In this document: piece by piece, positions 10,599 through 42,041 of the stretch | How the letters are laid out: every line of letters begins with the position of its first letter | Position numbering within the stretch: the stretch's first letter is position 1 | From: a virus | Taxonomy: Duplodnaviria > Caudoviricetes | Length of the DNA: 42,041 bases | IMG/VR virus record: IMGVR_UViG_3300017707_001954 | Span: 1-42,041 of that record | Strand: one strand, 5' to 3' | Program-made: the position numbers and the translations under genes | The notes under the pieces: model-generated | Database searches by the model: none | What the model was told of the DNA's origin: nothing | What the model saw: the letters and a program-made list of their open reading frames with translations, nothing else

Positions 10599-10804
10599 GC
10601 TTGCACCTCCTGGATGTAGGTGGTTCGCAGGCCATCTGTCACCGCCACCTTGCCACCGCCGCGAGGTTTCAGCCGCGACATAATCACGTCGATGTATTCG
10701 GGGATGAATTGACGCAAGGCCACATACTGCATGTCACTCCCGCGATCTCCGGCCATGGTGGCGGCGATCTCGTCGGGGCTTTGGCCTGGGGGGTCAGAGG
10801 TCAT
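10595..10804 (-). CDS. Hypothetical protein, 69 aa
   Basis: ATGA overlaps with both neighbours. Confidence 0.6.
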   Translation of the reverse strand: MTSDPPGQSPDEIAATMAGDRGSDMQYVALRQFIPEYIDVIMSRLKPRGGGKVAVTDGLRTTYIQEVQA

Positions 10805-13800
10805 GCGGGTTTGAAGATCATGGCGCGTTTCATCCAGCCGGTCACGATGAGATCATTGCCATCCCAGCAGACGCCAAGAGGATAGCGCATGTTTTGAGAG
10901 TTCGGGCTGCCGCCTGCCCACTCGCCCGCACTGCTGCTGATGCTGGCCTGTCCGAGCACGGCATCCATGCTTGCACCGCTGGCAGTAGGAAGTTCATAGA
11001 AAAGGGCCACGCGACTGTTTTGGTAGTCGCCCACGGCCACTTGGCCGAGATCATTGCAAGCTACGGAGCGTGGCGTTGAGCAGGTAGTAGCGGTGCTGCC
11101 GCTGCCGGTCACGCCAAAACCGCTTTGAAGTAGGACATGAGTAGCGCTGGCATTGTTTACCGTAGGGATGCTGGCAAAGACGCACACGCGGTTGTTGCTG
11201 CTATCTGCCACGAGCAGTTTGCCATCGGGCATTTCAGCCACGTCGTAAGGCTTGTTGAACTTATTAGCCGCGCTGCCAGTGGTGGCCACAGTAAATCCGG
11301 TCTGGCCGATCACGACATTAGCGGCAACACCGTTGGTTGTTGGCACACTATTCCATACGAGCACGCGGTTATTACCACTGTCGGCCACGATGAGCTTGCC
11401 GCTGCTCGTCACGCGGATGCCGTAGGGGGTATTGAGCTTGGCGGCCGTGAGTCCGCTGGAATAGGTGGTGAGGTTCGGTTGACCGATGACATTGGCCGGT
11501 GTGCTGCTGGCGCTGACAGGTGCGGCATAGCGGAGAATGCGGTGCGTGTTGACGCCACCGACTAAGAGGTCTTCACCACTCCATGCGACCGTTGACCAAC
11601 CATTCGAGACGCCGCCCGTAATATCGAGGAGGAGGAAATCAGCGGCAGCACCATTGGCGGTCGGCACACTGTTCCACACATAGACAGAGCCATCACTAAC
11701 ATTCACGATGGCCAGTTTGCCTGCGGGGGAGATCGCAGCGCCCCAGACGACATTGGACATCAGGCTGGATGTATTGGAAGCCACCTGATCATCAAAGTCC
11801 GCCTGCCCGAGCACCACGTTGGCGCTTTGGTAGGTGGTCAGGGCATCCGCCGGGGTGCCGGTGCCGCTGATGGTGATGTCGTAAGTCTGCTTGCTCACCG
11901 TGCTGGCGTTGTTCGTCAGTCGCAGGGTGCAGGTGCGGACACCGTAGCCGCTTGGGTTGAAGGTGACTTTGAAGGTCGTGGTGCCATCGGCAGCGATGCT
12001 GGCGGGCAGGCTGATGCCGCTCACAGTGAAGTCCGCACTGTTGCCGCCCGTGGTGGTGCATCCGGTCACGGAAAGGCTGCTGGTGCCGAGATTGCGGATC
12101 GTGAAGGTGCGCTCAATGGTGCCGCCCGATAGCAAGGCATTGCCGAAGTCAAGGCTCCCACCATCCGCGATAACGGTGGTGGCGGGATACTCCACCTGGA
12201 TGTCCGGCCCGGTGCCGCCGATGCCGTTCAGGGTGATATTTGTCGGGCTTTCGTCGCTGTCACTGCTGGTGATGGCCAGCGTGGTCGTGCGGGCTCCGGT
12301 GGCAGAAGGGTCAAAGGTGACAGTGAAGGTGGTGCTGGCTGCCGCGGCGAGGCTGGTGCTGCCGAGAGCGCTCACGGTGAAGTCACCCGCATTGCCACCC
12401 GACACTGCCGCAGCCAGACTGCTGAGCGTGCCTGCACCGCGATTGTAGATGGTAAAAGTTTTTATCCGCGTGTTGCTACCTGCGGCATCCACAGTGCCGA
12501 AGTCATAGCTGTGGCTGGTTTCCACCACCAGGCCGAGCGGGTCCTGAACCTCGATCTCGCCCACGGCCACACCAGTCCCGCTGAGGGTGATGGTGTAGGG
12601 ATCTTCGTCCAAGTCGGTGTTGATGATGGTCAGCGTGCTTGTCAAAGTGCCGCCAGCGGTGGGGATGAAGGTTACTTGCAGTGTCGTGCTGCCGCCTGCG
12701 GCCACGGTGCCATCCGGCGCGGTCGTGAGCTGCCAGTCACCGGCTCCCACGGCAGCGGCCACCGTCAAATTCCCCGTGCCGGTGTTCTCGATGGTGATCG
12801 TATAGGCTTGGCTGCTACCGGTGTCCACACTGCCAAAGGCGATGGTGCTGCCGGTGGCGTAGCTGGTGCCGCTGTATTTGACATTGATCTCCGGATCCGT
12901 GGCGGTGCCAGTGAGGGAGATCACGAGCGGGCTGGCCGGGTCATCGCTAGCCAAGCTGAGGCTTGCGGTGCGACTGCCAGAGCCCTGCGGGTTAAAGGTC
13001 AGGTCAAAGGTGGCGGTGCCGCCATTGGCTGCCACGGTGGTGGGCAGGGTGCCCACGATGAAATCCGTGTTGTGCGTGCCGCTGAGGGTGGCGGCGAGGT
13101 TGTTGAGGCTGAGCACGCCATTGTTCAGGATCGTCAGGGTCAGCGTGGTGCTGGCCTCCACGGCGGTGCTGGCAAAGGAGAGCGCGGAGCTGATGACGCT
13201 GCTGCCATTCTTCAGCACAAGCTCACTCTGCGGAGTCGCCATGAATTGCAGCGTGTTGCTGGTCAGGCCGGAGCGTTTGACCCGCGCCCAGTAGATCTGC
13301 CCACGGGTGAGGCCGGTCACGGTGTATTCCAGCGGGGCAGTGCTGTTCACCGCCTGATCCTTCAGCAGCAATCCACGGGTGAAGTCGGGAGAGGTGGCCA
13401 CATCCAGCGTGGTGCCACTGCCGGCCACATCCCAAGCCAGGTCCACGCTAGTGCTGCTCACGGGGGTATAGCTGAGGTTCAGCCCCGTGCTAGCACCTGC
13501 GCTGCTGGGGGCATCCAGCTCGATGATGGTGGTCATCCATCCGCCCATGTAGGGCCGGACATCCACATCAAGGATGATCGTGCCGGGCCAGACCTCGGGA
13601 TCGGTAGCGGGCTCGGTGAAGGTAAAGCCACCATCCGTAAACACGAGCTGCGGGTGCAGACATGCCTGCGTGCTGACTTGGAAACCTTCCGGCCCTTGGA
13701 AGTAAATGGAGCGCGGCAGCATCCGAGTCGGCTCGGGGATGTAGGGCTTGCTGCCACTGGTCGGCCATGAGGGGTTGCCGTCGTAGTCGGGCATCACGCG

Positions 13801-14661
13801 GGTCCACATCTCCGTCATGCGGCCTTTGCACGGGCCGTTGTAGCTGTCGGTTTTCCAAATCGGATAGGTGATGTAGCCACGGATGGCGGAGTAGATATTG
13901 CCCGCGTCCTCATAGATGGGCAGCACGAAGTAGCCGCTGAGCACGGGCGGCCAGTAGTGCCGCATGGGGCGCGGGATGATGCGGCTGGCCTTGCCATTCA
14001 CCGCTTGTCCGGCGATGCCGGGAGCCTTCCGCACGGTCCGCACGAGCCAGTCGGGATTGATGCCATCCACCTCGGCCATGCTGCCGCTGTCATCCGGCGC
14101 ACTGCCATGGGTGCCCGCAGGCACGAGCGTGCGGGTCACGGTGCGGATCTCGCCCGATTCGGAGTCGAGTGATTCCGACACGACACCCTCCCGGATGTCA
14201 CGCCAGATGCGGGTGATCACGATGTAAAGGCCATCCAACGGCTGCGGCAGGCGGTCCTGCCGCTGCTCGATGAAGGTCCACTCATAGGCACTGCTAAAGG
14301 TGGGCGGCGTCTCGCTCGGCGTCGTTTCACTCGGCACCCAGCCGGAGCGTTTCACGATGAAGGTCTGCCGAATCTGCGGGCCGTATTGGTCCGACAGCAC
14401 CTTGCTGAACTCGAAATTGTAATCTTCCTGGTCACTCCGCACCTTCGCATAGATGGGATACTGAAAGCCTTCCTCCGTGGGGTCAAAGCCCACGAGCTCA
14501 TAGTCTGGGAACTCACTGGCTGGAGCATACGCCTGCCCGATGGTCATGCGGGCGGCCACGTCATCACGCACCTTCTTCCCACGCAGGAGCAGGTCCTTCA
14601 GCGGCGAGTCAAAGCGGAGCGTGCGGTTGGGATCATCTCCCGTGAGATTCCAGGCGGCCAT
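10801..14661 (-). CDS. Tail/receptor-binding protein: phage N-terminal region, FN3, four Ig-like (ASH/choice-of-anchor-D type) repeats, C-terminal NHL beta-propeller
   Basis: FN3 motif YTVTGLTRGQIYWARV. Four repeats of F-G/A..T-I-x-N-x-G...L...F-x-P...T-x-x-L-x-I..D..P...L-x-G-x-G. NHL repeats LIVADSGNNRVLVW and LLVADSSNNRV with VLGQ spacers. Confidence 0.75.
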   Translation of the reverse strand: MAAWNLTGDDPNRTLRFDSPLKDLLLRGKKVRDDVAARMTIGQAYAPASEFPDYELVGFDPTEEGFQYPIYAKVRSDQEDYNFEFSKVLSDQYGPQIRQTFIVKRSGWVPSETTPSETPPTFSSAYEWTFIEQRQDRLPQPLDGLYIVITRIWRDIREGVVSESLDSESGEIRTVTRTLVPAGTHGSAPDDSGSMAEVDGINPDWLVRTVRKAPGIAGQAVNGKASRIIPRPMRHYWPPVLSGYFVLPIYEDAGNIYSAIRGYITYPIWKTDSYNGPCKGRMTEMWTRVMPDYDGNPSWPTSGSKPYIPEPTRMLPRSIYFQGPEGFQVSTQACLHPQLVFTDGGFTFTEPATDPEVWPGTIILDVDVRPYMGGWMTTIIELDAPSSAGASTGLNLSYTPVSSTSVDLAWDVAGSGTTLDVATSPDFTRGLLLKDQAVNSTAPLEYTVTGLTRGQIYWARVKRSGLTSNTLQFMATPQSELVLKNGSSVISSALSFASTAVEASTTLTLTILNNGVLSLNNLAATLSGTHNTDFIVGTLPTTVAANGGTATFDLTFNPQGSGSRTASLSLASDDPASPLVISLTGTATDPEINVKYSGTSYATGSTIAFGSVDTGSSQAYTITIENTGTGNLTVAAAVGAGDWQLTTAPDGTVAAGGSTTLQVTFIPTAGGTLTSTLTIINTDLDEDPYTITLSGTGVAVGEIEVQDPLGLVVETSHSYDFGTVDAAGSNTRIKTFTIYNRGAGTLSSLAAAVSGGNAGDFTVSALGSTSLAAAASTTFTVTFDPSATGARTTTLAITSSDSDESPTNITLNGIGGTGPDIQVEYPATTVIADGGSLDFGNALLSGGTIERTFTIRNLGTSSLSVTGCTTTGGNSADFTVSGISLPASIAADGTTTFKVTFNPSGYGVRTCTLRLTNNASTVSKQTYDITISGTGTPADALTTYQSANVVLGQADFDDQVASNTSSLMSNVVWGAAISPAGKLAIVNVSDGSVYVWNSVPTANGAAADFLLLDITGGVSNGWSTVAWSGEDLLVGGVNTHRILRYAAPVSASSTPANVIGQPNLTTYSSGLTAAKLNTPYGIRVTSSGKLIVADSGNNRVLVWNSVPTTNGVAANVVIGQTGFTVATTGSAANKFNKPYDVAEMPDGKLLVADSSNNRVCVFASIPTVNNASATHVLLQSGFGVTGSGSTATTCSTPRSVACNDLGQVAVGDYQNSRVALFYELPTASGASMDAVLGQASISSSAGEWAGGSPNSQNMRYPLGVCWDGNDLIVTGWMKRAMIFKPA

Positions 14662-33256: not shown

Positions 33257-33456
33257 AGCGCACCCCCCTCCGCAGAATCCACAGGAGCAGCAGCAGCAGC
33301 AGGAGCCAAAGCAGCCAGCCGCCGCTCACGATCCGCAGCCAGCCGCTTCTCCCACTTCAGCACCACCGCCGCCACATCGGCAGAGGGATTCAGCCGCCGA
33401 GTCTGCTGGCAGGTAGCCACCAGCACGTCAAGAACAGTCAATTCAGGGTCAGTCAT
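33253..33456 (-). CDS. Hypothetical protein, first gene of the leftward operon
   Basis: 67 aa; ends with GAGGGGG in front of the next start. Confidence 0.55.
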   Translation of the reverse strand: MTDPELTVLDVLVATCQQTRRLNPSADVAAVVLKWEKRLAADRERRLAALAPAAAAAPVDSAEGGAL

Positions 33457-33620
33457 ACAGAGCTAATTTGAAATCAGGCCAGAATTGCATGGATTAACCC
33501 ATCGCGCAACCTCGACTTGCAAACAAATTTATCTTGAAATAATACTTGCGCCGCAAGAATTAGCGCGTAATCTATCCCCGCCGCTATCACCGGCCCAAAC
33601 ATCAACACCGAATCCACATC
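33457..33620. promoter_or_regulatory. Divergent promoter region
   Basis: AT-rich gap between divergent operons; TTGCGC-16 bp-TAATCT at ~33547-33574; palindrome CTTGCGCCGCAAG. Confidence 0.55.
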
Positions 33621-34238
33621 ATGAGCACCGCCCTCACCATCCGCCCGCAGTCCGCCAAACGCCCCGACCGCAAAACCCGCAAAGAAGCCACCCCAGAGCA
33701 AAAAGAAGCCGCAGCCGCACGCCGTGCCGGCATCAAGCAGCTCTGCGCCATCGTCAAAGCCCTGCCCGTAGAAAAGCGCGTCCTCCTCGCCGCCTCCTAC
33801 GGCATCCGCAGCGCAGAGGGCCGCGAGCTCTCCCCCTTCAATCAATGCCTCCTCGTTCATCAAAACTCATCCGTTTCCATCGTGGGCGGCTTCCAGCAGT
33901 GGAAGAAACTCGGCCGCAGTGTCAAGAAAGGCGAGCGCTCCCTCGCCATCTGGGTCCCCTGCGGCAAGCAGGCCGAAAGCGCCAATGACGCCGCCGCGAA
34001 TCCCGACACCGACAACGACAAATTCTTCATCCTCGGCAGCGTCTTCGACATCACCCAGACAGAGACCGACGAGGAAAAAGCCGCCCGCGTAGCCGGTGAG
34101 ACCCTCGCCCTCCCAGCCCCAGCGCTCGCCCTGCCCTATCGCGCCGACGCCTTCGACATCGAAGCCGAGCCCATCACCGACGAGCCCGAGCCCGAGCCCG
34201 CCGCCAGCATCCAAGACGAATTCACCCTCTGCGACTAA
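33621..34238 (+). CDS. ArdC N-terminal-like (DUF1738) ssDNA-binding/anti-restriction protein
   Basis: SPFNQCLL...GFQQWKKLGRSVKKGERSLAIWVP...VFDITQT. Confidence 0.8.
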   Translation: MSTALTIRPQSAKRPDRKTRKEATPEQKEAAAARRAGIKQLCAIVKALPVEKRVLLAASYGIRSAEGRELSPFNQCLLVHQNSSVSIVGGFQQWKKLGRSVKKGERSLAIWVPCGKQAESANDAAANPDTDNDKFFILGSVFDITQTETDEEKAARVAGETLALPAPALALPYRADAFDIEAEPITDEPEPEPAASIQDEFTLCD

Positions 34239-34304
34239 ACCACCCCACCCAGCGCGGGCGGTTCCACCCCTCCCGCCTCTTCACTCTTTCCCTCCTTCCC
34301 TCTC

Positions 34305-34634
34305 ATGAACAAATCTGAAGAACTCGCCGCCTTTCACGCATTCCGCCGCAGCATGCCGCCGGCCAGCTATCTGCGCCCATGGCTCGACAGCATCGCCGAT
34401 GAAATAGAATCCAGTTTGACCAGCGATTATTTCCCGTGCGCCTCCATTCACGAAGCGCAAAAGCAGGCCGCCGCCATCCTCCAGGATGCACGAGCCCACG
34501 CCGCAGAAGTGACGCAGACAGCCAAAGACCAGGCCGCCAAAGAAACCGCCGCCGCATCCAAAGACATCAATGACGCCATGCGCCGCGCCTTGTCAGCCGT
34601 CGCCGCCGCTGAACGTGCCCTTTCCAATTACTAA
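34305..34634 (+). CDS. Hypothetical helical protein
   Basis: 109 aa with codon usage like neighbouring phage genes. Confidence 0.6.
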   Translation: MNKSEELAAFHAFRRSMPPASYLRPWLDSIADEIESSLTSDYFPCASIHEAQKQAAAILQDARAHAAEVTQTAKDQAAKETAAASKDINDAMRRALSAVAAAERALSNY

Positions 34635-34653
34635 CCCATTCCCCTTCCCCATC

Positions 34654-35625
34654 ATGAGCACCATGCAATTCCTCCGCCACAAAGTCACCGGCATCAAATA
34701 CATACGCCTCGCCAGCGGCTCCATGATCCCCGTTTCCGACCTCCCGCGCCTCGCCGGCAATGACGCCGACCTGCGCAGCATCGAGATCAAGTGCGAAACG
34801 TGCCACACCTGGCACCCCTGCCACGCCATGCACACGCACCCCACCGGCCTCCAGTGCCGCGCCTGCATCGCCACCGCAGCCGCCGCCGCCAGCCCAGAGA
34901 GCGAGCACGCCGCCGCCATGCGCAAAGCCGCCGCCCTCCTACGCCTCGCCCAGTCAGACAACCCGCACGAAGCCGCCCTCGCCGCCTCCCGCGCTCAAGA
35001 AATCATCGACCGCTACAAACTCAACCTTGCCGCCCTCGATAGCGCCCCCAGCGAGGAACCCGCCGAAGAAATCCGCAACTTCAAAGACGATCCCCTCGAC
35101 ACCGGCGGCCTGTGGAAAGCCCTCCTGGCTCAAGCCGTCGCCAACGTCAACCAATGCAAAGTTTACACCTCCGGCGGCAATGTCCACATCATCGGCCGCC
35201 CGTCTGACGTGGCTATTGTCCGCCCCTTCCACGCCTACCTCGCCGGAGAGATCGAGCGCCTAGCCTCCCGCCACTGCCGCGGCAACTCCCGCACCTATTG
35301 GAACAACTTCCGACTTGGAGCCGTGGAAACCATCAAGCAGCGCCTCCAGGCCTCCCTCGCCTCCACCGTCGAAACAGTAAAGGCCGAAGCCCTCGCCGCC
35401 GGTAACAGCGCCGCCCTCGTCACCGTCACAAACTCGCTGGCCATCATCGAAAAGCGCAAACAAGAAGTCGAAGCCTGGGCACGGCAAAACATGAACCTTC
35501 GCAGCCGCACCGCCCGCAGCAGCTACAACAACGCCGGCCGCGAAGCAGGCCGCGCCGCCGGCCATAGCGTCAACCTCCACCGCTCCGCCGGAGCCCTCAA
35601 CAGCACCCGCCGCGCCCTCGCCTAG
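34654..35625 (+). CDS. DUF2786-containing protein with an N-terminal Cys/His cluster
   Basis: KAAALLRLAQSDNPHEAALAASRAQEIIDRYKL; WNNFRLGAV; AGREAGRAAG. Confidence 0.8.
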   Translation: MSTMQFLRHKVTGIKYIRLASGSMIPVSDLPRLAGNDADLRSIEIKCETCHTWHPCHAMHTHPTGLQCRACIATAAAAASPESEHAAAMRKAAALLRLAQSDNPHEAALAASRAQEIIDRYKLNLAALDSAPSEEPAEEIRNFKDDPLDTGGLWKALLAQAVANVNQCKVYTSGGNVHIIGRPSDVAIVRPFHAYLAGEIERLASRHCRGNSRTYWNNFRLGAVETIKQRLQASLASTVETVKAEALAAGNSAALVTVTNSLAIIEKRKQEVEAWARQNMNLRSRTARSSYNNAGREAGRAAGHSVNLHRSAGALNSTRRALA

Positions 35626-35627
35626 CC

Positions 35628-36224
35628 ATGCACTCCCCAGAAATCACCGCCGACTTCCTCCACCGCCTCGCCCTCCTCCTGGATGGCGAGGCGGTCACCC
35701 GTCCCGGCTGCAGTGACGAGCGCCTCCCCGTCATCCGCCTGCATTCACCCCGCGTCCTGCTCTCCATCTCAAATTCATGGGACGCCCGCCCCAAGTGGCG
35801 CGCCTCCGTCATGGACTGGGAAGGAAAGCACATCCACGGCAGCCCCAGCGCCAACTTCACCAGCACCCGCCCCATCGAAGAAATTGCCGCCGATCTCCGC
35901 CGCCGCGTCCTAGATCCCGCCCGCGCCAAGCTCATCCAGCACGCCACCAGCGCCGCCGCCGCCGCCCAAAAGCACCAGCAGGCCGCCCACCGCCTCGCCG
36001 AGCTAGAAACCATCCTCGGCCCCACAAAGCCCTATCACAACGGATACGCCAACCTTCCCGGTTTCCGCATCCCACACGAGCACCACCTGCAAGACCGTGA
36101 CGGCCCCTGGCCATCCTTCCAAGCAGAAATCACCCTTCACAGCTTTGCCGCCCTCAAAATGATCGCCGCCATCATCGCCGAAGATCACCGCTTGAACAAT
36201 CAAGCGCGTGAATGCAGTGAATAA
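35628..36224 (+). CDS. Hypothetical protein
   Basis: 198 aa, starts 2 nt after the previous stop. Confidence 0.6.
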   Translation: MHSPEITADFLHRLALLLDGEAVTRPGCSDERLPVIRLHSPRVLLSISNSWDARPKWRASVMDWEGKHIHGSPSANFTSTRPIEEIAADLRRRVLDPARAKLIQHATSAAAAAQKHQQAAHRLAELETILGPTKPYHNGYANLPGFRIPHEHHLQDRDGPWPSFQAEITLHSFAALKMIAAIIAEDHRLNNQARECSE

Positions 36225-36294
36225 CAGCCCCCCCAAACAAAAGCGCCCGGCGGGCTATCACCTCCGCCGGGCCATGCACCGAATCCATCAGCCC

Positions 36295-36537
36295 ATGAGC
36301 CAGCCACAGCCAGCCACCCCCAGCATCCCCCAGCTCACCGCCGCCGGCAAGCCCAGAAAACGCGCCCCCGGCGCCGGAGCCCCCAAAAAGCACCGTCAGC
36401 ATCACCTCTCCCGAGTTGATGCCACCACCCTCCACACACTCCAAGCCCTCGCCACCGCCTGGCACTGCACCTTAGCAGATGCCATCGCCCGCGCCGCCAT
36501 CCAAGCCCACAAAACCCTCAAAAAGCCGCCAGCATAG
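36295..36537 (+). CDS. RHH/CopG-like DNA-binding protein
   Basis: RKRAPGAGAPKK...RVDATTLHTLQALATAWHCTLADAIARA. Confidence 0.55.
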   Translation: MSQPQPATPSIPQLTAAGKPRKRAPGAGAPKKHRQHHLSRVDATTLHTLQALATAWHCTLADAIARAAIQAHKTLKKPPA

Positions 36538-36649
36538 CCACAGCCCCCCATATCACCCTTCCCCACCGAAAACCACCCCCAAAACCGCCGCACCCCGGCG
36601 GTTTTCTCATATCCACACCCCAGCCAAACCCGCCTACCAACAAATAAAA

Positions 36650-36665
36650 CTTGATTTCAATCAAG
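36650..36665 (+). promoter_or_regulatory. Palindromic operator overlapping a probable -35 box upstream of the repressor-like gene
   Basis: CTTGAT-TTCA-ATCAAG, with TTGATT as -35 in an AT-rich gap. Confidence 0.5.
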
Positions 36666-36690
36666 ACTAACTTTACACATCCACCACCCC

Positions 36691-37134
36691 ATGAGCTACC
36701 TCGCCGTCCAAGTCACCGAATACCTTCGCACCTGCCCACATTCCGCCCGGGAGATCGAAGAGCGCGCCAAACTGCCCCGCATGACCCTCGGCACCATCCA
36801 GCGTGACGGCCATCCCCGGCCCGACCGCTTCGGCCAGCTCCTGAAAGCCGTCGATGACCACACTGCCCGCCAATGGCTCGAAGCCTACCTGCTCGACGAC
36901 TGCCCCGAAGCCTGGCTTCCCCGCGTCAAAATCCTCATCGAAGGCCTGCAACATATACAGACCACAGACACCAGCCACCTCGCCGAGCCCCACAAATCCT
37001 ACGGCCCCCCAGCCGACCCCATCGCCGCCACCGCCCGCGCCCTCCACCGCCTCCAGTCTGCCATGGCCAAAGACCGCGAGCTCAGCACCTGGTTCCTCCA
37101 AACCGTCACCCTCATCCTCGGCCCCGAAGAATGA
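36691..37134 (+). CDS. XRE/CI-like HTH repressor candidate
   Basis: SAREIEERAKLPRMTLGTIQRDGHPRPDRFGQLLKAV; its stop overlaps the distal boundary of the cassette array. Confidence 0.6.
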   Translation: MSYLAVQVTEYLRTCPHSAREIEERAKLPRMTLGTIQRDGHPRPDRFGQLLKAVDDHTARQWLEAYLLDDCPEAWLPRVKILIEGLQHIQTTDTSHLAEPHKSYGPPADPIAATARALHRLQSAMAKDRELSTWFLQTVTLILGPEE

Positions 37135-37232
37135 ACGATCAAACTGTGCCGACCGAGGGCGGCGATAAAAAGCTATGAAATCACAAACGACGACACCGCC
37201 GACCGAAGGTTGGCACCAGTGGCTGGTTCGGC
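37130..37232 (-). repeat. attC of cassette 6 (distal)
   Basis: Minus strand: R'' GCCGAAC, 5 nt, L'' ACTGGTGC (extra G) ... L' GCACAGT, 6 nt, R' GTTCATT. Confidence 0.85.
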
Positions 37233-37462
37233 TTTGGAAGGCCGTGACGCATTCGCACACATGGCAGAGGATCAATGATGCCTCAATCATGGATGTAAAT
37301 GACACATATCCGCCAACTCATATCGACTACATCAGCCCGAAACGCTGGTGTCCTGAATGCGGGCGGATGGAATGGTATGTAGGGCCTGAAGTCTGCGGCG
37401 GAGATCGAGCACGATGGGTGCCGTTCTCGCCATGGACTGACGATGATGAGCCGAACCGCTAG
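37175..37462 (+). CDS. Cassette 6 ORF, hypothetical with H-x-H...CPEC metal-binding motif
   Basis: Starts in its own attC loop; ends EPNR* inside the next attC. Confidence 0.65.
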   Translation: MKSQTTTPPTEGWHQWLVRLWKAVTHSHTWQRINDASIMDVNDTYPPTHIDYISPKRWCPECGRMEWYVGPEVCGGDRARWVPFSPWTDDDEPNR

Positions 37463-37543
37463 GGCTATGCCGCCCGCAACTGAATCGGACCATGGAAAGT
37501 AACAGCACAGCTATTGAAGGTCGTCATCAGCCCCTTGTTCGGC
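37450..37543 (-). repeat. attC of cassette 5
   Basis: Minus strand: GCCGAAC-AAGGG-GCTGATGA ... GCATAGC-CCTAGCG-GTTCGGC. Confidence 0.8.
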
Positions 37544-37845
37544 CTCTTCGGGCGAAGGACATGGCCGCATTCTTCAACGCCGACCCAACACCGGAAACGC
37601 TGGTCAAGATCGCCTGCGCCATGGACGCCGAGACATCGGAAATCCTCAAATCAAGGGGTATCCAGAAAGACGCCTCGTTCTTATCGCTCCTGAAAGAGCA
37701 GGACAACAAGTGGCAGGCTTTCGCCCGTCGCTGCCCAGACGTGAACCCGATGGCATTCCGGCTAGTCATGCAAAAACTCCACCCAACCACTGCGGCCTTT
37801 GCTTGGCCGAACGACAGAATCCACCCACATGATGGGCGTAAATAG
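37492..37845 (+). CDS. Cassette 5 ORF, hypothetical
   Basis: Starts in the attC loop; ends WPNDRIHPHDGRK* inside the next attC. Confidence 0.7.
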   Translation: MESNSTAIEGRHQPLVRPLRAKDMAAFFNADPTPETLVKIACAMDAETSEILKSRGIQKDASFLSLLKEQDNKWQAFARRCPDVNPMAFRLVMQKLHPTTAAFAWPNDRIHPHDGRK

Positions 37846-37905
37846 ACATCCGCTTTCACGCAAGACACTGCCGCCCATCATGTTGGGTGCGATGCCTTGT
37901 TCAGC
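37806..37905 (-). repeat. attC of cassette 4
   Basis: Minus strand: GCTGAAC-AAGGC-ATCGCACC-CAACATGATGGGCG ... CGCCCATCATGTG-GGTGGAT-TCTGTC-GTTCGGC; two extrahelical bases. Confidence 0.9.
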
Positions 37906-38026
37906 TTTGACCGCAGCAGAGGACGCTCTGCCGATGGCCTCTGGGCCGGAACTGCGGGCAGGAGTGGCAGACGTAAACCCACCCCGCTACCTCTCGGCGT
38001 AACAACAGCGGAGGAAACTTTCGACC

Positions 38027-38275
38027 ATGAACAACATACACTGCATCCCAGTCGGAAACGGCGAGCCAATACATGAATGTCACACGCTCTGCTGGTGCCA
38101 TCCGGTGAAGGACACCGAATCCGTAAATCTCTATGCCCACAACGCGAAAGACTGCCGCGAGAAGTGGGAGCGCCAAGGACTCGAAATGCCATCTGAGTCC
38201 TTGTGGGTGACTGTGGAAGAGAAGCTGAACGAATCAAGTGATGGCGCGGCGGGCTGCGGCCCGAACTCGCCTTGA
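38027..38275 (+). CDS. Cassette 4 ORF, Cys/His-rich small protein
   Basis: GGAGG upstream; H-x-x-P...H....CWCHP...H motif; stop inside the next attC. Confidence 0.7.
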   Translation: MNNIHCIPVGNGEPIHECHTLCWCHPVKDTESVNLYAHNAKDCREKWERQGLEMPSESLWVTVEEKLNESSDGAAGCGPNSP

Positions 38276-38312
38276 GAGCTTATCGCCGTCGGCCATCCAC
38301 GTCTTGTTCGTG
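38224..38312 (-). repeat. attC of cassette 3
   Basis: Minus strand: CACGAAC-AAGAC-GTGGATGG-CCGACGGCG ... CGCCGCG-CCATCAC-TTGATTC-GTTCAGC. Confidence 0.85.
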
Positions 38313-38344
38313 GGCGGCGGACTGGCACGAAAGACACCGAAACC

Positions 38345-38581
38345 ATGATCACAATCCCCGAATCTTACATGCTGCTGAACTGCGGAAAGTGCGGTCACGA
38401 GGCTGACTTCTTCGACTTCTGTCGCACGCCGATCACCGGCGAACTTCCTAGCGGAACCCACCAATGCCCTAAGTGCCGGAAGGCATGGAAAATGGAAAAG
38501 TATGAGGAAGGCCAATGGCTCGCCACTGGCCAATACATCCCACCAGGCCGCCGTGCTGTCTCAATCCCCACCATCCTCTAA
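38345..38581 (+). CDS. Cassette 3 ORF a, zinc-ribbon protein
   Basis: CGKC ... CPKC. Confidence 0.7.
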   Translation: MITIPESYMLLNCGKCGHEADFFDFCRTPITGELPSGTHQCPKCRKAWKMEKYEEGQWLATGQYIPPGRRAVSIPTIL

Positions 38582-38583
38582 TC

Positions 38584-38880
38584 ATGTCCGATCTACCTGA
38601 AACACTCTGGGGGCCGCTGTGGCGGCACATGCACAACGAGCACGGCCTGATCCTGCTCGATGACGAATGCAACCAAATCGCGCAAGCCGCCGATGAAGCA
38701 AGGATGGCCGCTGGAACGCCAGTGGCAATGATCCTGATCAACGCGCTGCGGAGCCTGAGCAAAAAGGAGCTGGTGACGCTGGGCAAGGCAATCGCGGATC
38801 GCTGCGGACACAGGCTCGAACCAGCAATTTGTCCCACGAACGCCGCTGGTGAGGCGACGGCGAGCGATACGCGCCGATGA
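38584..38880 (+). CDS. Cassette 3 ORF b, hypothetical
   Basis: ATG 2 nt after the previous stop (MSDLPETLWGPLW); ends PTNAAGEATASDTRR* inside the next attC. Confidence 0.65.
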   Translation: MSDLPETLWGPLWRHMHNEHGLILLDDECNQIAQAADEARMAAGTPVAMILINALRSLSKKELVTLGKAIADRCGHRLEPAICPTNAAGEATASDTRR

Positions 38881-38927
38881 CATGATAGACCAACTTCGAG
38901 CCGTTGCCTCCAGCAGCATGGTTCAGC
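38835..38927 (-). repeat. attC of cassette 2
   Basis: Minus strand: GCTGAAC-CATGCT-GCTGGAGG-CAACGGC ... GCCGTCG-CCTCACC-AGCGGC-GTTCGTG. Confidence 0.85.
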
Positions 38928-38945
38928 CCGAAACCTCCCACGACT

Positions 38946-39215
38946 ATGACCATACAGAGCCTCACGCAAGATCACGAAGCCGCCGCCAAAGCACTCATGG
39001 ACGGCATCAAAGAGCTGATACCTGTCGGCACAAAACTGCGAATCCTCATGCGGGGGCGCGGTGGCAAAACCATTGACGCTGAAGTCATCTCCCACGGCCA
39101 CGCATGGAGCATCAAGTATCCTCACGAGGTGCATGTGAAGAATCTCAAAACAGGCAAGACTCGCACGATAGATGTCCATCCCGAGTTCGGACACCGCTAC
39201 GAGGTCATTGGCTGA
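38946..39215 (+). CDS. Cassette 2 ORF, small SH3-like beta protein (hypothetical)
   Basis: MTIQSLTQD...PVGTKLRI...VHVKNLKTGKTRTI; TGA lies inside the GCTGAAC core. Confidence 0.65.
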   Translation: MTIQSLTQDHEAAAKALMDGIKELIPVGTKLRILMRGRGGKTIDAEVISHGHAWSIKYPHEVHVKNLKTGKTRTIDVHPEFGHRYEVIG

Positions 39216-39272
39216 ACGCTTGAGATCAGCCACTGAGCCTAAGCGAAGTTGGACTGCATCTCATTGTTCTCT
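39211..39272 (-). repeat. attC of cassette 1 (62 bp, minimal size)
   Basis: Minus strand: AGAGAAC-AAT-GAGATGCAGTCCAACT ... AGTGGCTGATCTC-AAGC-GTTCAGC. Confidence 0.85.
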
Positions 39273-39302
39273 GACGTTGGTAAAAAATCTCCAAATAAGG
39301 AC

Positions 39303-39331
39303 TTGCACAATGTAGCTTAATGCTACATAAT
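39303..39331 (+). promoter_or_regulatory. Cassette-internal sigma70 promoter with an overlapping palindromic operator
   Basis: TTGCAC-17 bp-CATAAT; ATGTAGC-TTAAT-GCTACAT (39310-39328); GGGGA then ATG 39340. Confidence 0.75.
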
Positions 39332-39339
39332 GGGGACAT

Positions 39340-39567
39340 ATGAAACCACCATTACTACAAATCAAAATCGGGAGTCAGGCACGCATCACAGCCATTAGTC
39401 TTCAACATGCCCGAGCAATTTGGGAGCAGTATCGCGCCGACAAAGATCTTGGCGCAAGCAATGCACCCAAAGTTCTTCTCTATCTGGATGGAGTGAAGAT
39501 CGGACACATGAGCTACAATGGCCGTATCTGGGACTTGGACAATGTAGAAATGGAGGCAGCAGCGTGA
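39340..39567 (+). CDS. Cassette 1 ORF a, hypothetical (HMSYNGRIW motif)
   Basis: Own promoter and RBS; coupled to the next gene by a GTGA overlap. Confidence 0.75.
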   Translation: MKPPLLQIKIGSQARITAISLQHARAIWEQYRADKDLGASNAPKVLLYLDGVKIGHMSYNGRIWDLDNVEMEAAA

Positions 39568-40235
39568 GAGTCCTTATCGGCTATGAATCATCAGGCATGA
39601 CTCGCGAAGCCTTTAGGCGGCGCGGGCATGATGCGTGGTCGTGCGATATACAGCCCGCTGACGATAACTCTTCGTATCACTATCAATGTGACATTCGCGA
39701 TGTCGTCCACATGGGGTGGGACCTAGCCATCTTCCACCCATCATGCACTTACCTTACGTGTTCCGCAGAGTGGGCTTATGGTGACGGTCCATATCACATG
39801 AACCTAAAGATAGGAACGCTTGTGGGCAAAGCCAGACGGCAAGCCCGCGAAGCGGCGATAGCCGAAGTAAAATGGCTGTGGGCGCTGCCGATTGAGCGCA
39901 TAGTGATCGAAAACCCAAAAGGCGCTTTATCAACGCGATGGAGGAAGCCGACACAAATAATTCAGCCTCACGAGTATGGTGACGACGCCAGCAAAGAAAC
40001 GCACATCTGGAGCCGGGGATGCTCTCTTATGACCCCGACGTTGCATGTAGCTCCTCGCATCGTGGAGCATCCAAAAGGATCAGGAAAACTGGTCAAGCGC
40101 TGGGCCAATCAAACCGACTCAGGACAGAATAAACTTACGCCATCACAAACCCGATGGAAAGAGCGAAGCAAGACCTATCCCGGTATTGCTGAAGCCCTCG
40201 CATCGCAACTTCTCCAAGATTTTCGCCTCGTATGA
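39564..40235 (+). CDS. Cassette 1 ORF b, short phage-type C5-cytosine DNA methyltransferase-like protein
   Basis: MRVLIGYESSG (motif I variant), AWSCD, FHPSCT (PC-motif variant), IENP. GTG start after GGAGG. Confidence 0.75.
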   Translation: MRVLIGYESSGMTREAFRRRGHDAWSCDIQPADDNSSYHYQCDIRDVVHMGWDLAIFHPSCTYLTCSAEWAYGDGPYHMNLKIGTLVGKARRQAREAAIAEVKWLWALPIERIVIENPKGALSTRWRKPTQIIQPHEYGDDASKETHIWSRGCSLMTPTLHVAPRIVEHPKGSGKLVKRWANQTDSGQNKLTPSQTRWKERSKTYPGIAEALASQLLQDFRLV

Positions 40236-40447
40236 CGCCAGATCAATACAAAGCCACCCGTGAGCGCCTCGGCACACAAGCCGAGGTCGCTCTCATGCTC
40301 GGCGTGAATCGCGTGACTGTCGCGAAGCGGGAGAACGGCACCATGACCATCACAAACGAGGCAGTCCTAGCGATTCAGTCGCTCCGAAGGCCGAGACGTA
40401 AACGCAAGTCAGAGAACACTGATTATCCCGACCAGCTTTCCAGATAG
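40232..40447 (+). CDS. Cassette 1 ORF c, XRE HTH protein whose C-terminus crosses attI
   Basis: MTPDQYKATRERLGTQAEVALMLGVNRVTVAKRENG. Confidence 0.85.
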   Translation: MTPDQYKATRERLGTQAEVALMLGVNRVTVAKRENGTMTITNEAVLAIQSLRRPRRKRKSENTDYPDQLSR

Positions 40448-40450
40448 CCA
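40411..40450 (-). other. attI site (core GTTCTCT on the minus strand; crossover between 40416 and 40417)
   Basis: GTCAGAGAAC (40408-40417) is the exact reverse complement of GTTCTCTGAC (39266-39275) of the first attC. No attC hairpin follows, and it lies ~60 bp upstream of intI. Confidence 0.8.
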
Positions 40451-40475
40451 CCCCAAAACCAGAAACACCACCGCC

Positions 40476-41498
40476 ATGACACTCCCCGAAATGGTTGAAC
40501 AAGTCCGCATCGTCTGCCGAATGCGCCGACTTTCCCGGCACACCGAGGATTGTTACAGCGGCTGGATCACACGCTTTGCCGCGCACGTCCGCACCTGTCC
40601 GGAACTCAGCCGCGACGAGCGCGTGCGCACCTACCTCGAAAAGCTCGCCCCGCGCACCTCCGCAAGCACCCAAAACCAAGCCCTGAACGCCATCGTCTTC
40701 CTGTATCGCGATGTCATCAAAGAACCCTTGGGTGACCTTGGCAAATGGGCACGGGCCAAACGCCCCGCCCGCCTGCCCACCTGGCTATCACCGCAGGAAA
40801 TGCAGCGCCTGCTTGATCAAATGCCGCCCGGCACCCGCATGATGGCCGAACTCGCTTATGGCTCGGGCCTGCGCGTGGCCGAGCTGCTCGCCCTCCGCAT
40901 CAAAGACATCGACCTTGATGCCCATCTCGTCACCGTCAGAGGCGGCAAGGGTGACAAAGACCGCATCACCGTCCTACCCCGCAGCCTCATGCATCGGCTT
41001 CACGCCCATCTCAACCGCATCCGCGTCCTCTATGATGGCGACCGCGCCGCCAGCGCCCCGCCCATCTACCTCCCCGATGGCCTCGAGCGCAAGTTTCCCA
41101 ATGCCGGCCGCGAGTGGGCATGGTTTTGGCTATGGCCAGCCGCCAGCCACAGCACCGATCCCCGCACCGGCATCCACCGCCGCCATCACGTCCACGAAGA
41201 CACGCTCGGCAAAGCCCTCAAACTTGCCACCCGCAAAGCCGGACTGCACAAACGAGTCACCGCCCACACCCTCCGGCACAGCTTTGCCACCAATCTCCTC
41301 GCCAGTGGTGCCAGCATCACCCAAGTGCAGGAACTCCTCGGCCATAACAGCGTCGAAACCACCCAGGTCTATCTTCACTGCGTCCCCCAGTTCGCCGCCA
41401 CCATCACCAGCCCGCTTGATGCTCTGCCAGCAGCGTCAAACATCCTTCCCTTTCACGTCCCATCCTCACAGTCCCAGCCCCTTGCCCGCACCGCATGA
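40476..41498 (+). CDS. intI: Integron integrase (IntI family)
   Basis: SASTQNQALNAIVFLYR, YGSGLRVAE, GGKGDKDR, HTLRHSFAT, LLGH..V.TT.VY, plus the integron-specific insertion IYLPDGLERKFPNAGREWAWFWLWP...DPRTG..RRHH. Confidence 0.95.
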   Translation: MTLPEMVEQVRIVCRMRRLSRHTEDCYSGWITRFAAHVRTCPELSRDERVRTYLEKLAPRTSASTQNQALNAIVFLYRDVIKEPLGDLGKWARAKRPARLPTWLSPQEMQRLLDQMPPGTRMMAELAYGSGLRVAELLALRIKDIDLDAHLVTVRGGKGDKDRITVLPRSLMHRLHAHLNRIRVLYDGDRAASAPPIYLPDGLERKFPNAGREWAWFWLWPAASHSTDPRTGIHRRHHVHEDTLGKALKLATRKAGLHKRVTAHTLRHSFATNLLASGASITQVQELLGHNSVETTQVYLHCVPQFAATITSPLDALPAASNILPFHVPSSQSQPLARTA

Positions 41499-42041
41499 GC
41501 ACCACCCCAGCCACCATCATCACCCCGCTTGGCCTTGAAGTGCCCACACCGCCCGCCCATGAGTGGCGCGAGCACACAACCGAGCGCTGGCGCGACCGTG
41601 ACCCCGAGAGCCACGCATTCGCCCTCCACCTCGTCCGCCAGCTCGGCATCACTAATAAAACCCAAATCACCGAGCTAGTCGATCAGCACCGCGCCGCCCG
41701 CCAGCTCCCCGGCATCTCCCGCAACAGCATCATCGCCCTCTTCAACGACACCACCGAGTTCAAGCCCGGCGAAATAGACGAAATCATCCGCCGCCGCTCC
41801 AGTCTCCTCACCGCCGACACCCTCGACAAAATCGAAACCCTTCTCGACAAAGCCAAAGCCGCCAAAGACCTCGGCGCCGCCGCCATGGCCCTCACCGCCG
41901 TTTACAACGTCAAACAAATCTCCAGCGGCGGCGCCACAAGGATCAGCGGCCAAACCAGCGACAGCCAAAAAGCCCGCACCTTCGACGAACTTCGCGCCCG
42001 CGCTCGCGCCCTACTCAGCACCCCCCAGCCGCCCGAACTTC
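41495..42041 (+). CDS. Partial ORF (182+ aa, runs off the end), possible terminase small subunit-like protein
   Basis: ATGA-coupled to the intI stop, with no stop before the window end. The helical AKDLGAAAMALTAVYNVKQISSGGATRI segment resembles TerS-type proteins. Confidence 0.5.
   Translation, partial: MSTTPATIITPLGLEVPTPPAHEWREHTTERWRDRDPESHAFALHLVRQLGITNKTQITELVDQHRAARQLPGISRNSIIALFNDTTEFKPGEIDEIIRRRSSLLTADTLDKIETLLDKAKAAKDLGAAAMALTAVYNVKQISSGGATRISGQTSDSQKARTFDELRARARALLSTPQPPEL

What the first reader, a model, noticed from the sequence alone, without database searches (positions are those of the whole stretch)
37136..40447. All cassette genes are inverted relative to attC polarity and point toward intI
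Seen: attC polarity (extra base in L'', spacer lengths, core pairing) runs on the minus strand away from intI, as in normal integrons. Yet all nine credible ORFs are on the plus strand, with the attC at their 5' end. Known: canonical cassettes are read from a Pc promoter near attI with attC at the 3' end, and inverted ORFs are the minority. Inference: the array is read from the phage early/repressor side (e.g. the promoter near 36650), so the oldest cassette is promoter-proximal. These cassettes would be silent in a host integron and host cassettes silent here, which suggests a phage-specific cassette pool.
Basis: partly seen in the sequence, partly recalled or inferred. Interest (0 to 1): 0.85.

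Follow-up and report, generated by a model that had tools for sequence, protein, structure and literature searches.

The report
Phage integron read backwards
A freshwater temperate phage carries its own integron gene-shuffling system whose swappable genes all face the opposite way to those of bacterial integrons, a layout shared by 53 of 58 phage-type integrons checked, likely because the phage's own early transcripts read them; this would give phages a cassette pool that hosts largely cannot express.

Summary
Confirmed, and general. This ~42 kb temperate phage (host likely Verrucomicrobiaceae) has a true integron integrase, a conserved attI and six attC sites in standard polarity. All nine cassette genes lie on the attC bottom strand and point at intI. 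Natural variants break at the predicted AAC crossovers, so the polarity holds without the hairpin argument. Across phage-type IntI loci, 89 of 100 cassettes face intI (3 canonical, 8 unclear). In bacterial chromosomes 54 of 87 are canonical (8 inverted, 25 unclear). One genome carries both types. New feature: genes often run through the crossover, reading its AAC as Asn in 39 of 40 cases, so the neighbouring site supplies the C-terminal tail and stop. The array ends a co-directional early operon: after the repressor-like gene here, after replication genes in some relatives. Expression from upstream, and mutual silence with host cassettes, are inferred; no RNA data. Against full isolation: one attC family is shared with hosts, cassette A has its own promoter-like site, and phages TJE1 and M16-3 are canonical. 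Eight literature searches found no description. This scan noted similar inverted arrays on other DNA, mostly without IntI.

The parts
36587..36612 (+). terminator-like hairpin with T run, closing the upstream early genes
   Evidence: consensus match only; such hits were as frequent in shuffles; similar hairpin in L002
36640..36680 (+). promoter-like site: A-rich tract, TTGATT, 17 nt, TACACA, overlapping a short palindrome; likely start of the transcript that enters the array
   Evidence: similar motif in 8 of 9 upstream regions listed (3 are the window's own phage; absent in L026); not called by the sigma-70 scan; function untested
36691..37134 (+). 147 aa HTH repressor-like gene; its stop overlaps the last attC core
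   Evidence: 24 homologs; HTH look-alikes in the protein atlas; no Pfam, PHROG or PDB hit; divergent from the array operon in L058
37130..37232 (-). attC1
   Evidence: variant breakpoint at 37135
37136..37455 (.). cassette F (320 nt): attC1 plus gene 37175-37462 (+, 95 aa, starts in the attC loop)
   Evidence: 100% over 320 nt as first cassette of L024, whose IntI is 80% identical
37450..37543 (-). attC2
   Evidence: breakpoints 37449, 37454, 37457
37456..37811 (.). cassette E (356 nt): gene 37492-37845 (+, 117 aa, starts in the attC loop)
   Evidence: absent in a contig joining 37449 to 37806 (only 19 letters on the short side)
37806..37905 (-). attC3
   Evidence: breakpoints 37812, 37813
37812..38229 (.). 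cassette D (418 nt): gene 38027-38275 (+, 82 aa, phrog_2864)
   Evidence: homologs in inverted arrays of two Verrucomicrobiales genomes
38224..38312 (-). attC4
   Evidence: joints 38226/38230 to 40414/40415
38230..38840 (.). cassette C (611 nt): genes 38345-38581 (78 aa, CxxC pairs) and 38584-38880 (98 aa), both +
   Evidence: 351 nt variant starting at 38227
38835..38927 (-). attC5, same sequence family as Verrucomicrobiaceae chromosomal attCs
38841..39216 (.). cassette B (376 nt): gene 38946-39215 (+, 89 aa), stop inside the core
   Evidence: a contig matches 38838-39218 with foreign flanks on both sides
39211..39272 (-). attC6
   Evidence: breakpoints 39214, 39218
39217..40416 (.). cassette A (1200 nt): own promoter-like site 39304-39331 with a palindrome, then 39340-39567 (75 aa), 39564-40235 (DNA methyltransferase, phrog_757), 40232-40447 (XRE HTH, runs through attI)
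   Evidence: the middle is replaced in variants
40411..40450 (-). attI; crossover inferred between 40416 and 40417
   Evidence: conservation among 18 aligned loci starts at the AAC and runs toward intI; breakpoints 40414-40417
40476..41498 (+). intI, integron integrase, 340 aa
   Evidence: TIGR02249 344 bits against cut-off 265; aligns to VchIntIA 2A3V over residues 9-316 including the integron insertion; R133, K158, H264, R267, H290, Y299 invariant in 20 of 20

Best explanation
This is a phage-native integron: an intact IntI, its attI and six attC cassettes sit in the standard geometry, every cargo gene lies on the attC bottom strand facing intI, and the array is likely transcribed from the phage operon upstream rather than from a Pc at attI. 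Steps. (1) Shown: platform and polarity are standard, and cassettes are gained, lost and moved between phages as units bounded by the bottom-strand AAC. (2) Inferred: the phage's own IntI does much of this. (3) Shown: array and intI lie at the downstream end of co-directional genes, and only about 30-60 nt separate the crossover from the intI start. Inferred: one early or lysogenic transcript (here from about 36650, through the repressor-like gene) reads cassettes and then intI, helped by promoter-bearing cassettes such as A. (4) Shown: the attC is part of the coding layout. Genes that cross the junction read AAC as Asn and end in the next site, and about half have an in-frame ATG in their own attC. 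Inferred: this packs the array into a translationally coupled operon that survives any reordering. (5) Inferred: with standard strand choice, promoterless host cassettes would enter antisense and stay silent, and the reverse in hosts, which keeps a separate phage pool.
For: Polarity by hairpin geometry and core chain. Independent polarity from natural variants breaking at the left-hand AAC of each site and from protein families conserved up to the Asn with variable tails: 14 of 15, 6 of 6, 10 of 10, 13 of 15. Orientation of chain-validated cassettes: phage-type 61 toward, 1 canonical, 7 unclear in 37 loci; bacterial 54 canonical, 8 toward, 25 unclear in 25 loci. A second viral set found with a bacterial IntI profile: 28 toward, 2 canonical, 1 unclear in 21 loci. 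PHROG hits for the longest ORF per strand: 24 of 80 toward against 1 of 80 canonical, leaving aside the 18 cassettes of L121 and L100, which gave 0 and 4. One Verrucomicrobiaceae genome has 5 of 5 inverted in a prophage-like element and 2 of 2 canonical in its chromosomal integron. Frame lock 33 of 34 (p 2e-13) and 6 of 6; 20 of 21 counting once per locus. Upstream genes mostly co-directional in the 32 maps. Inverted arrays fall in several IntI clades.
Against: No transcript, start-site or recombination data. The 36650 site is a weak consensus match and was not called by the scan. Cassette A has its own promoter-like site, so read-through is not needed for it or perhaps for intI. The bottom-strand folding advantage is weak in phage attCs (47 of 69, mean -0.8 kcal/mol, against 82 of 102, -2.9 in bacteria). 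Early stops in the AAC frame are partly intrinsic to attC: 62 of 69 in phage but also 75 of 102 in bacteria. Some swaps are not at crossovers (37813-37954 and about 39330-40245 replaced), which points to homologous recombination too. attC5 is shared with hosts. TJE1 and M16-3 arrays are canonical, and a chromosomal integron (L214) has 2 inverted cassettes.
Confidence: 0.75

Rival explanations
1. Same architecture, but each cassette is expressed from its own internal promoter, as known for the minority of inverted bacterial cassettes; upstream read-through is unimportant.
For: Cassette A has a conserved promoter-like site with a palindrome. Cassette D has about 120 nt between attC and its start. 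attC hairpins could hinder read-through (recalled from Jacquier 2009; only the reference line was seen).
Against: The scan found no promoter-like site in cassettes F-B. Starts lie in or just after the attC. Self-promoted cassettes could face either way, yet 89 of 92 callable ones face intI.
Confidence: 0.1
2. The phage IntI is largely a passenger; the array is reshuffled by host IntI and by homologous recombination between similar attCs.
For: Inverted arrays occur with no intI in the fetched stretch (L268). attC families are shared with hosts. Some swaps are off-crossover. 51 of 145 genomes in the likely host family carry an IntI.
Against: IntI is intact with invariant catalytic residues, always beside a conserved attI, and near-identical IntIs carry different first cassettes.
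Confidence: 0.08
3. A captured host integron in which a few inverted cassettes happened to be kept.
For: Captured host integrons exist in phages (PMC9892861; M16-3; L121, L100). Chromosomal arrays hold some inverted cassettes (8 of 62 callable).
Against: The IntI clade of 38 rows is all viral or metagenomic. Family chromosomal IntIs are only 40-48% identical and mostly canonical. Cargo is phage-like (8 methyltransferases, 4 PAPS reductases among 24 hits). Coding across the crossover is nearly absent in canonical cassettes (60 of 62 stop before or in R'').
Confidence: 0.04
4. The polarity is misread: this IntI uses the other strand, so the genes are canonical and only intI is flipped.
For: The folding-energy bias is weak; the top strand is more stable for 2 of the 6 window sites.
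Against: Variants break at the left-hand AAC of each site and protein conservation ends at that Asn. The same scan gives the expected polarity on bacterial controls. W216, P229 and H237 align with VchIntIA W219, P232 and H240 (their role in reading extrahelical bases is recalled).
Confidence: 0.03

Closest known systems
Canonical integrons (class 1; sedentary chromosomal integrons)
   Same: IntI with the integron insertion, attI just upstream of intI, attC with extra base in L'' and polarity running away from intI, crossover at the bottom-strand AAC (PMC5027507, passages seen).
   Different: Cargo genes on the attC bottom strand facing intI; no Pc found; coding sequence spans the crossover in a fixed frame; start codons often inside the attC; carried by a phage in an early operon.
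Phage-borne integrons and CALINs of Qi et al. 2023 (PMC9892861)
   Same: attC arrays in phage genomes, often with DNA methyltransferases; phage attCs were recombined by IntI1 with bottom-strand preference.
   Different: Their 3 complete integrons in 10,705 genomes are host-type captures. TJE1 and M16-3 are canonical in my scan. The main text does not describe arrays with genes inverted to attC (parts 1-4 of 7 and supplement part 1 read).
Inverted-integrase integrons (Treponema type; PMC4889954)
   Same: intI and cargo genes end up on the same strand.
   Different: [quoted passage not shown] Here intI and attC are on opposite strands as usual, and it is the genes that are inverted.
Inverted own-promoter cassettes in bacterial arrays
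   Same: Cassette A fits: promoter-like site, palindrome, HTH gene.
   Different: In bacteria these are exceptions (8 of 62 callable); here inversion is the rule and most cassettes show no promoter.

Membership tests
Integron (canonical) | Tyrosine recombinase with the integron-specific insertion | tested here: met
   TIGR02249 344 > 265; full alignment to 2A3V, E 3e-65; catalytic residues invariant
Integron (canonical) | attI next to the 5' end of intI | tested here: met
   conserved block from AAC to the intI start, variable upstream; breakpoints 40414-40417
Integron (canonical) | attC with R''/R', L''/L', extrahelical base, and matching core chain | tested here: met
   6 of 6 sites
Integron (canonical) | Cassettes move as units bounded by the R' crossover | tested here: met
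   natural variants and shared cassettes; the enzyme responsible is not shown
Integron (canonical) | Pc promoter at attI driving the array | tested here: inconclusive
   no minus-strand promoter-like site in 33400-42041; the -10-like hexamer in attI varies at its second base; a consensus scan cannot exclude one, but it would be antisense to all genes
Integron (canonical) | Cargo genes co-oriented with the attC top strand | tested here: not met
   0 of 9 in the window; 3 of 100 in phage-type loci
Integron (canonical) | IntI recombines folded bottom-strand attC with attI | not testable with these tools
   needs a recombination assay
Inverted-integrase (Treponema-type) integron | intI in the same orientation as attC | tested here: not met
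   intI plus, attC top strand minus
CALIN | No integron integrase nearby | tested here: not met
   intact intI 59 nt from the crossover

The most novel reading that the evidence does not exclude
Temperate phages run a second, mirror-reading cassette economy on the integron machinery. Several IntI lineages were recruited to the ends of phage early operons. Reading the attC bottom strand acts as a firewall that silences captured host cassettes, many of which encode anti-phage defence, while a frame-locked junction lets recombination also swap C-terminal tails, so that reordering changes the proteins themselves and not only their dose.
Probability: 0.35. Interest if true: 0.92.

Novelty: new variant of a known kind. 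Interest (0 to 1): 0.8.

Why it matters
Integrons are treated as bacterial devices whose strand selectivity exists to put promoterless genes under Pc, and complete integrons in phages as rare captures. Here the same enzyme and sites serve phages with the reading direction reversed, in at least 53 loci across several IntI clades. It offers a site-specific mechanism for the mosaic small-gene regions of temperate phages and for the spread of orphan methyltransferases among them. It also means that cassette surveys mix two pools that a simple strand test separates. The predictions (strand choice, transcript direction, mutual silence, swapped tails) can be tested with standard E. coli assays.

Tried and rejected
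Wrong-strand insertion of ordinary cassettes: rejected, since that flips attC and gene together (PMC5027507 passage) while here attC keeps its normal direction. Pc inside attI: no support. LexA boxes: four recalled patterns gave no exact match near intI. Rfam: 0 hits in 33400-42041. PADLOC: 0 of 9 cassette proteins. Array DNA against 50,697 GenBank phages: no match; IntI protein matched 9 records, all under 45%. Rctr41k has no attC call upstream of its integrase. PH101 (first 48 of 132 kb) and MW202573 (first 30 of 35 kb) gave no array in my scan, so they were not scored. Cassette E family: not found in 301 Verrucomicrobiales genomes. HTH 36691: no PDB relative. Sequencing runs: no RNA holder listed, so expression was not examined; only DNA contigs were laid. 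Longest-ORF length alone separates strands poorly (57 against 41 of 98). Earlier notes on this genome: none; the by-sequence look-up returned one unrelated note.
Full report
Setting. The window is a virus record of 42,041 bases rated complete; a second assembly runs from the window's end into sequence nearly identical to its start, so the genome is circular or terminally redundant. It encodes an integrase (441-1862), lysozyme, an SU10-type capsid protein, SSB, DnaB and an ArdC-like protein. The best DNA holders are freshwater metagenomes. The host is inferred to be Verrucomicrobiaceae: a genome of that family (G001, record title) holds an IntI 73% identical to this one inside a prophage-like element next to host metabolic genes.

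The observation. My attC scan asks for xAAC, a 4-6 nt spacer, an 8 nt L'' with one extra base, a 7 nt L', a 5-8 nt spacer and GTTx. In the whole window it found 6 sites, all minus, all in 37130-39272; 100 resamples gave under 0.1 per strand. The R'' of each site matches the core that ends its cassette, in a chain ending at 40411-40417. Sequence from that AAC to the intI start is conserved among 18 aligned loci, while what precedes it varies, which defines attI. IntI passes TIGR02249 (344 against 265) and aligns with VchIntIA. The nine plus-strand genes are supported by family hits (3 of 10 plus ORFs, 0 of 10 minus), exact presence in public gene calls (8 of 10 looked up) and, for gene F, a 55% homolog and 7 synonymous among 9 coding differences.

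Polarity tested without the hairpin. Eight of 24 listed runs were laid, all DNA contigs. One 2,798 nt contig follows the backbone to 37135, carries 279 foreign letters, rejoins at 37454 and ends its match at 38230. Contigs in two runs join 38226-38230 to 40414-40415, skipping cassettes C, B and A (24-31 letters on the short side, so individually weak). Another matches 38838-39218, cassette B, with foreign flanks on both sides. Loose ends fall at 37812, 38227, 38230, 39214, 39218 and 40417. These are the left-hand AAC of each site, the R' of the minus polarity. Ends at 37540 and 38313 belong to short matches covering only an attC arm, read as similar attCs with other cargo. Two replacements (37813-37954; about 39330-40245) are not bounded by crossovers on both sides and suggest homologous exchange. 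Cassette F, last in this array, is 100% identical over 320 nt to the first cassette of L024, whose IntI is 80% identical. L021, with a 99.7% identical IntI, has a different array.

Generality. I fetched IntI loci from viral contigs, metagenome contigs, bacterial genomes and 20 of the 60 family matches, chosen for upstream room. Coding strand per cassette came from a codon model trained on long ORFs. A first pass gave 84 toward, 15 canonical and 10 unclear for viral and metagenome loci, and 7, 58, 25 for bacteria. Keeping only cassettes whose R'' matches the next core at 6 of 7: phage-type 61 toward, 1 canonical, 7 unclear (37 loci; 34 mostly toward, none mostly canonical); bacteria 8, 54, 25 (25 loci; 3 and 18). 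Two viral records whose ids point to isolate genomes (L121, L100; 3 toward, 11 canonical, 1 unclear) were set apart after I had seen them, as likely captured host integrons. To check that split I searched viral contigs again with an alignment of 16 bacterial IntIs, fixed the split by id prefix beforehand and skipped 32 cassettes already counted: metagenome-derived records gave 28 toward, 2 canonical, 1 unclear, 19 of 21 loci. Together: 89 of 100 cassettes and 53 of 58 loci. A model-free check agrees: PHROG hits for the longest ORF on each strand were 24 of 80 toward against 1 of 80 canonical (that one antisense to a methyltransferase); the 18 cassettes of L121 and L100 gave 0 and 4; 6 cassettes lacking an ORF on one strand were skipped. 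Among the 24 hits are 8 DNA methyltransferases and 4 PAPS reductases. In G001 the prophage-like array is 5 of 5 toward and the chromosomal one 2 of 2 canonical. Both searches keep the best 80 of about 500 hits, so this is a sample, not a census. On a quick tree of 121 IntIs (rows under 270 aa or with a stop in the matched stretch left out) inverted arrays fall in at least four places, two nested among chromosomal IntIs; monophyly was not formally tested.

attC as part of the coding layout. Of 58 inverted cassettes with a scored gene, the last gene ends beyond the crossover in 34, at the core in 10 and before it in 14. In 33 of the 34 the AAC is read as Asn (expected share 0.38; p 2e-13), 20 of 21 counting once per locus and 6 of 6 in the second set. 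Public relatives of four window proteins are conserved up to that Asn and then carry unrelated tails (14 of 15, 6 of 6, 10 of 10, 13 of 15). In that frame a stop lies inside the attC in 62 of 69 phage sites, against 34 and 32 in the other frames; bacterial sites show 75 of 102, so part of this is intrinsic to attC sequence. An in-frame ATG lies inside the cassette's own attC in 27 of 58; 37 of 69 such ATGs share the cargo frame (p 4e-4). Canonical cassettes differ: 60 of 62 stop before or in R''.

Expression. Not measured. In the 32 maps the genes just upstream of the array mostly point toward intI (L088 is an exception). The context varies: behind the HTH repressor-like gene (window, L051, L028, L059, L074) or behind larger genes read from their size and position as the replication module (L058, L061, L062, L070, L053, L055, L095), or on the far side of the switch from the repressor (L212). 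The crossover lies about 30-60 nt from the intI start in close relatives, little room for two promoters. In the window a terminator-like hairpin (36587) precedes an A-rich TTGA motif seen in most relatives with this gene. Cassette A has its own promoter-like site with a palindrome, conserved in L004, L006 and L008, and A-type cassettes are often first, where they could drive intI.

Against a sealed pool. attC5 is 74-83% like attCs of three Verrucomicrobiaceae chromosomal integrons, so cross-recombination is likely possible. TJE1 and M16-3 are canonical. L214, beside cobalamin genes, has inverted cassettes including a methyltransferase. In favour: the cassette D family was found in 2 of 301 Verrucomicrobiales genomes, both times inverted to its attC, once among phage-like genes.

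Literature. Eight searches found no description of phage integrons with inverted cargo; the library lacks most subscription journals. Seen: PMC9892861 parts 1-4 of 7 and supplement part 1 of 2 (its annotation file on Dryad was not seen and may show orientations); passages of PMC5027507, PMC4889954, PMC8946536, PMC11551772, PMC13323075, 10.1101/2022.09.11.507474, 10.64898/2026.03.17.712381 and 10.64898/2026.09.14.751636; listing and abstract start only for 10.1101/2024.07.02.601686 and 10.1101/2024.07.02.601719, which report anti-phage systems in bacterial cassettes. The firewall idea rests on those abstracts and on inference. Earlier notes of this scan describe inverted attC arrays in eight other genomes, by their titles mostly without IntI or with Xer-like enzymes; my reading was fixed before that look-up and I did not check their loci.

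Verdict. A real, active-looking integron variant native to phages. Architecture about 0.97; expression from the upstream phage transcript about 0.75; functional separation from host pools about 0.65. New variant of a known kind, interest 0.8.

Noticed in passing
window 39217-40416; L004, L006, L008: Cassette A is a promoter - variable middle - HTH module. The promoter-like site overlaps a palindrome, and the middle (here a 75 aa gene and a methyltransferase) is replaced by 268 or 517 other letters in variants.
   Followed up: partly
L212 914-1412 and 2954-3461 (G001:C15): The same two-gene cassette occurs twice in one prophage-like array, as does most of a neighbouring one; a sign of IntI activity.
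   Followed up: no
window 37906-38026: About 120 nt between attC3 and the start of gene D; its first part is swapped together with the attC in variants. No Rfam hit. Possible regulatory leader.
   Followed up: partly
window 36640-36693; L059, L074, L027, L058: The -10-like hexamer ends only 5-11 nt before the ATG of the HTH gene, as for a leaderless repressor message (the lambda cI parallel is recalled).
   Followed up: no
window 41495-42041 and across the join: A 206 aa gene follows intI on the same strand; in L068 its homolog precedes a gene with a P-loop, suggesting a small terminase subunit.
   Followed up: no
window 10801-14661: A 1,286 aa gene with ASH/HYDIN-like Ig domains and NHL repeats, possibly a tail or surface protein.
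   Followed up: no
L149, L160, L161, L206: Bacterial loci with attC arrays downstream of intI on the same strand, the inverted-integrase type.
   Followed up: no
L062 and L063, 7.2-8.3 kb upstream of intI; L031 downstream of intI: Second attC clusters away from attI; in L062 they are on the opposite strand within a leftward gene run, suggesting more than one array per phage.
   Followed up: no
L214 (G004:C108): Chromosomal integron beside cobalamin genes whose two visible cassettes, one a D12 adenine methyltransferase, face intI.
   Followed up: partly
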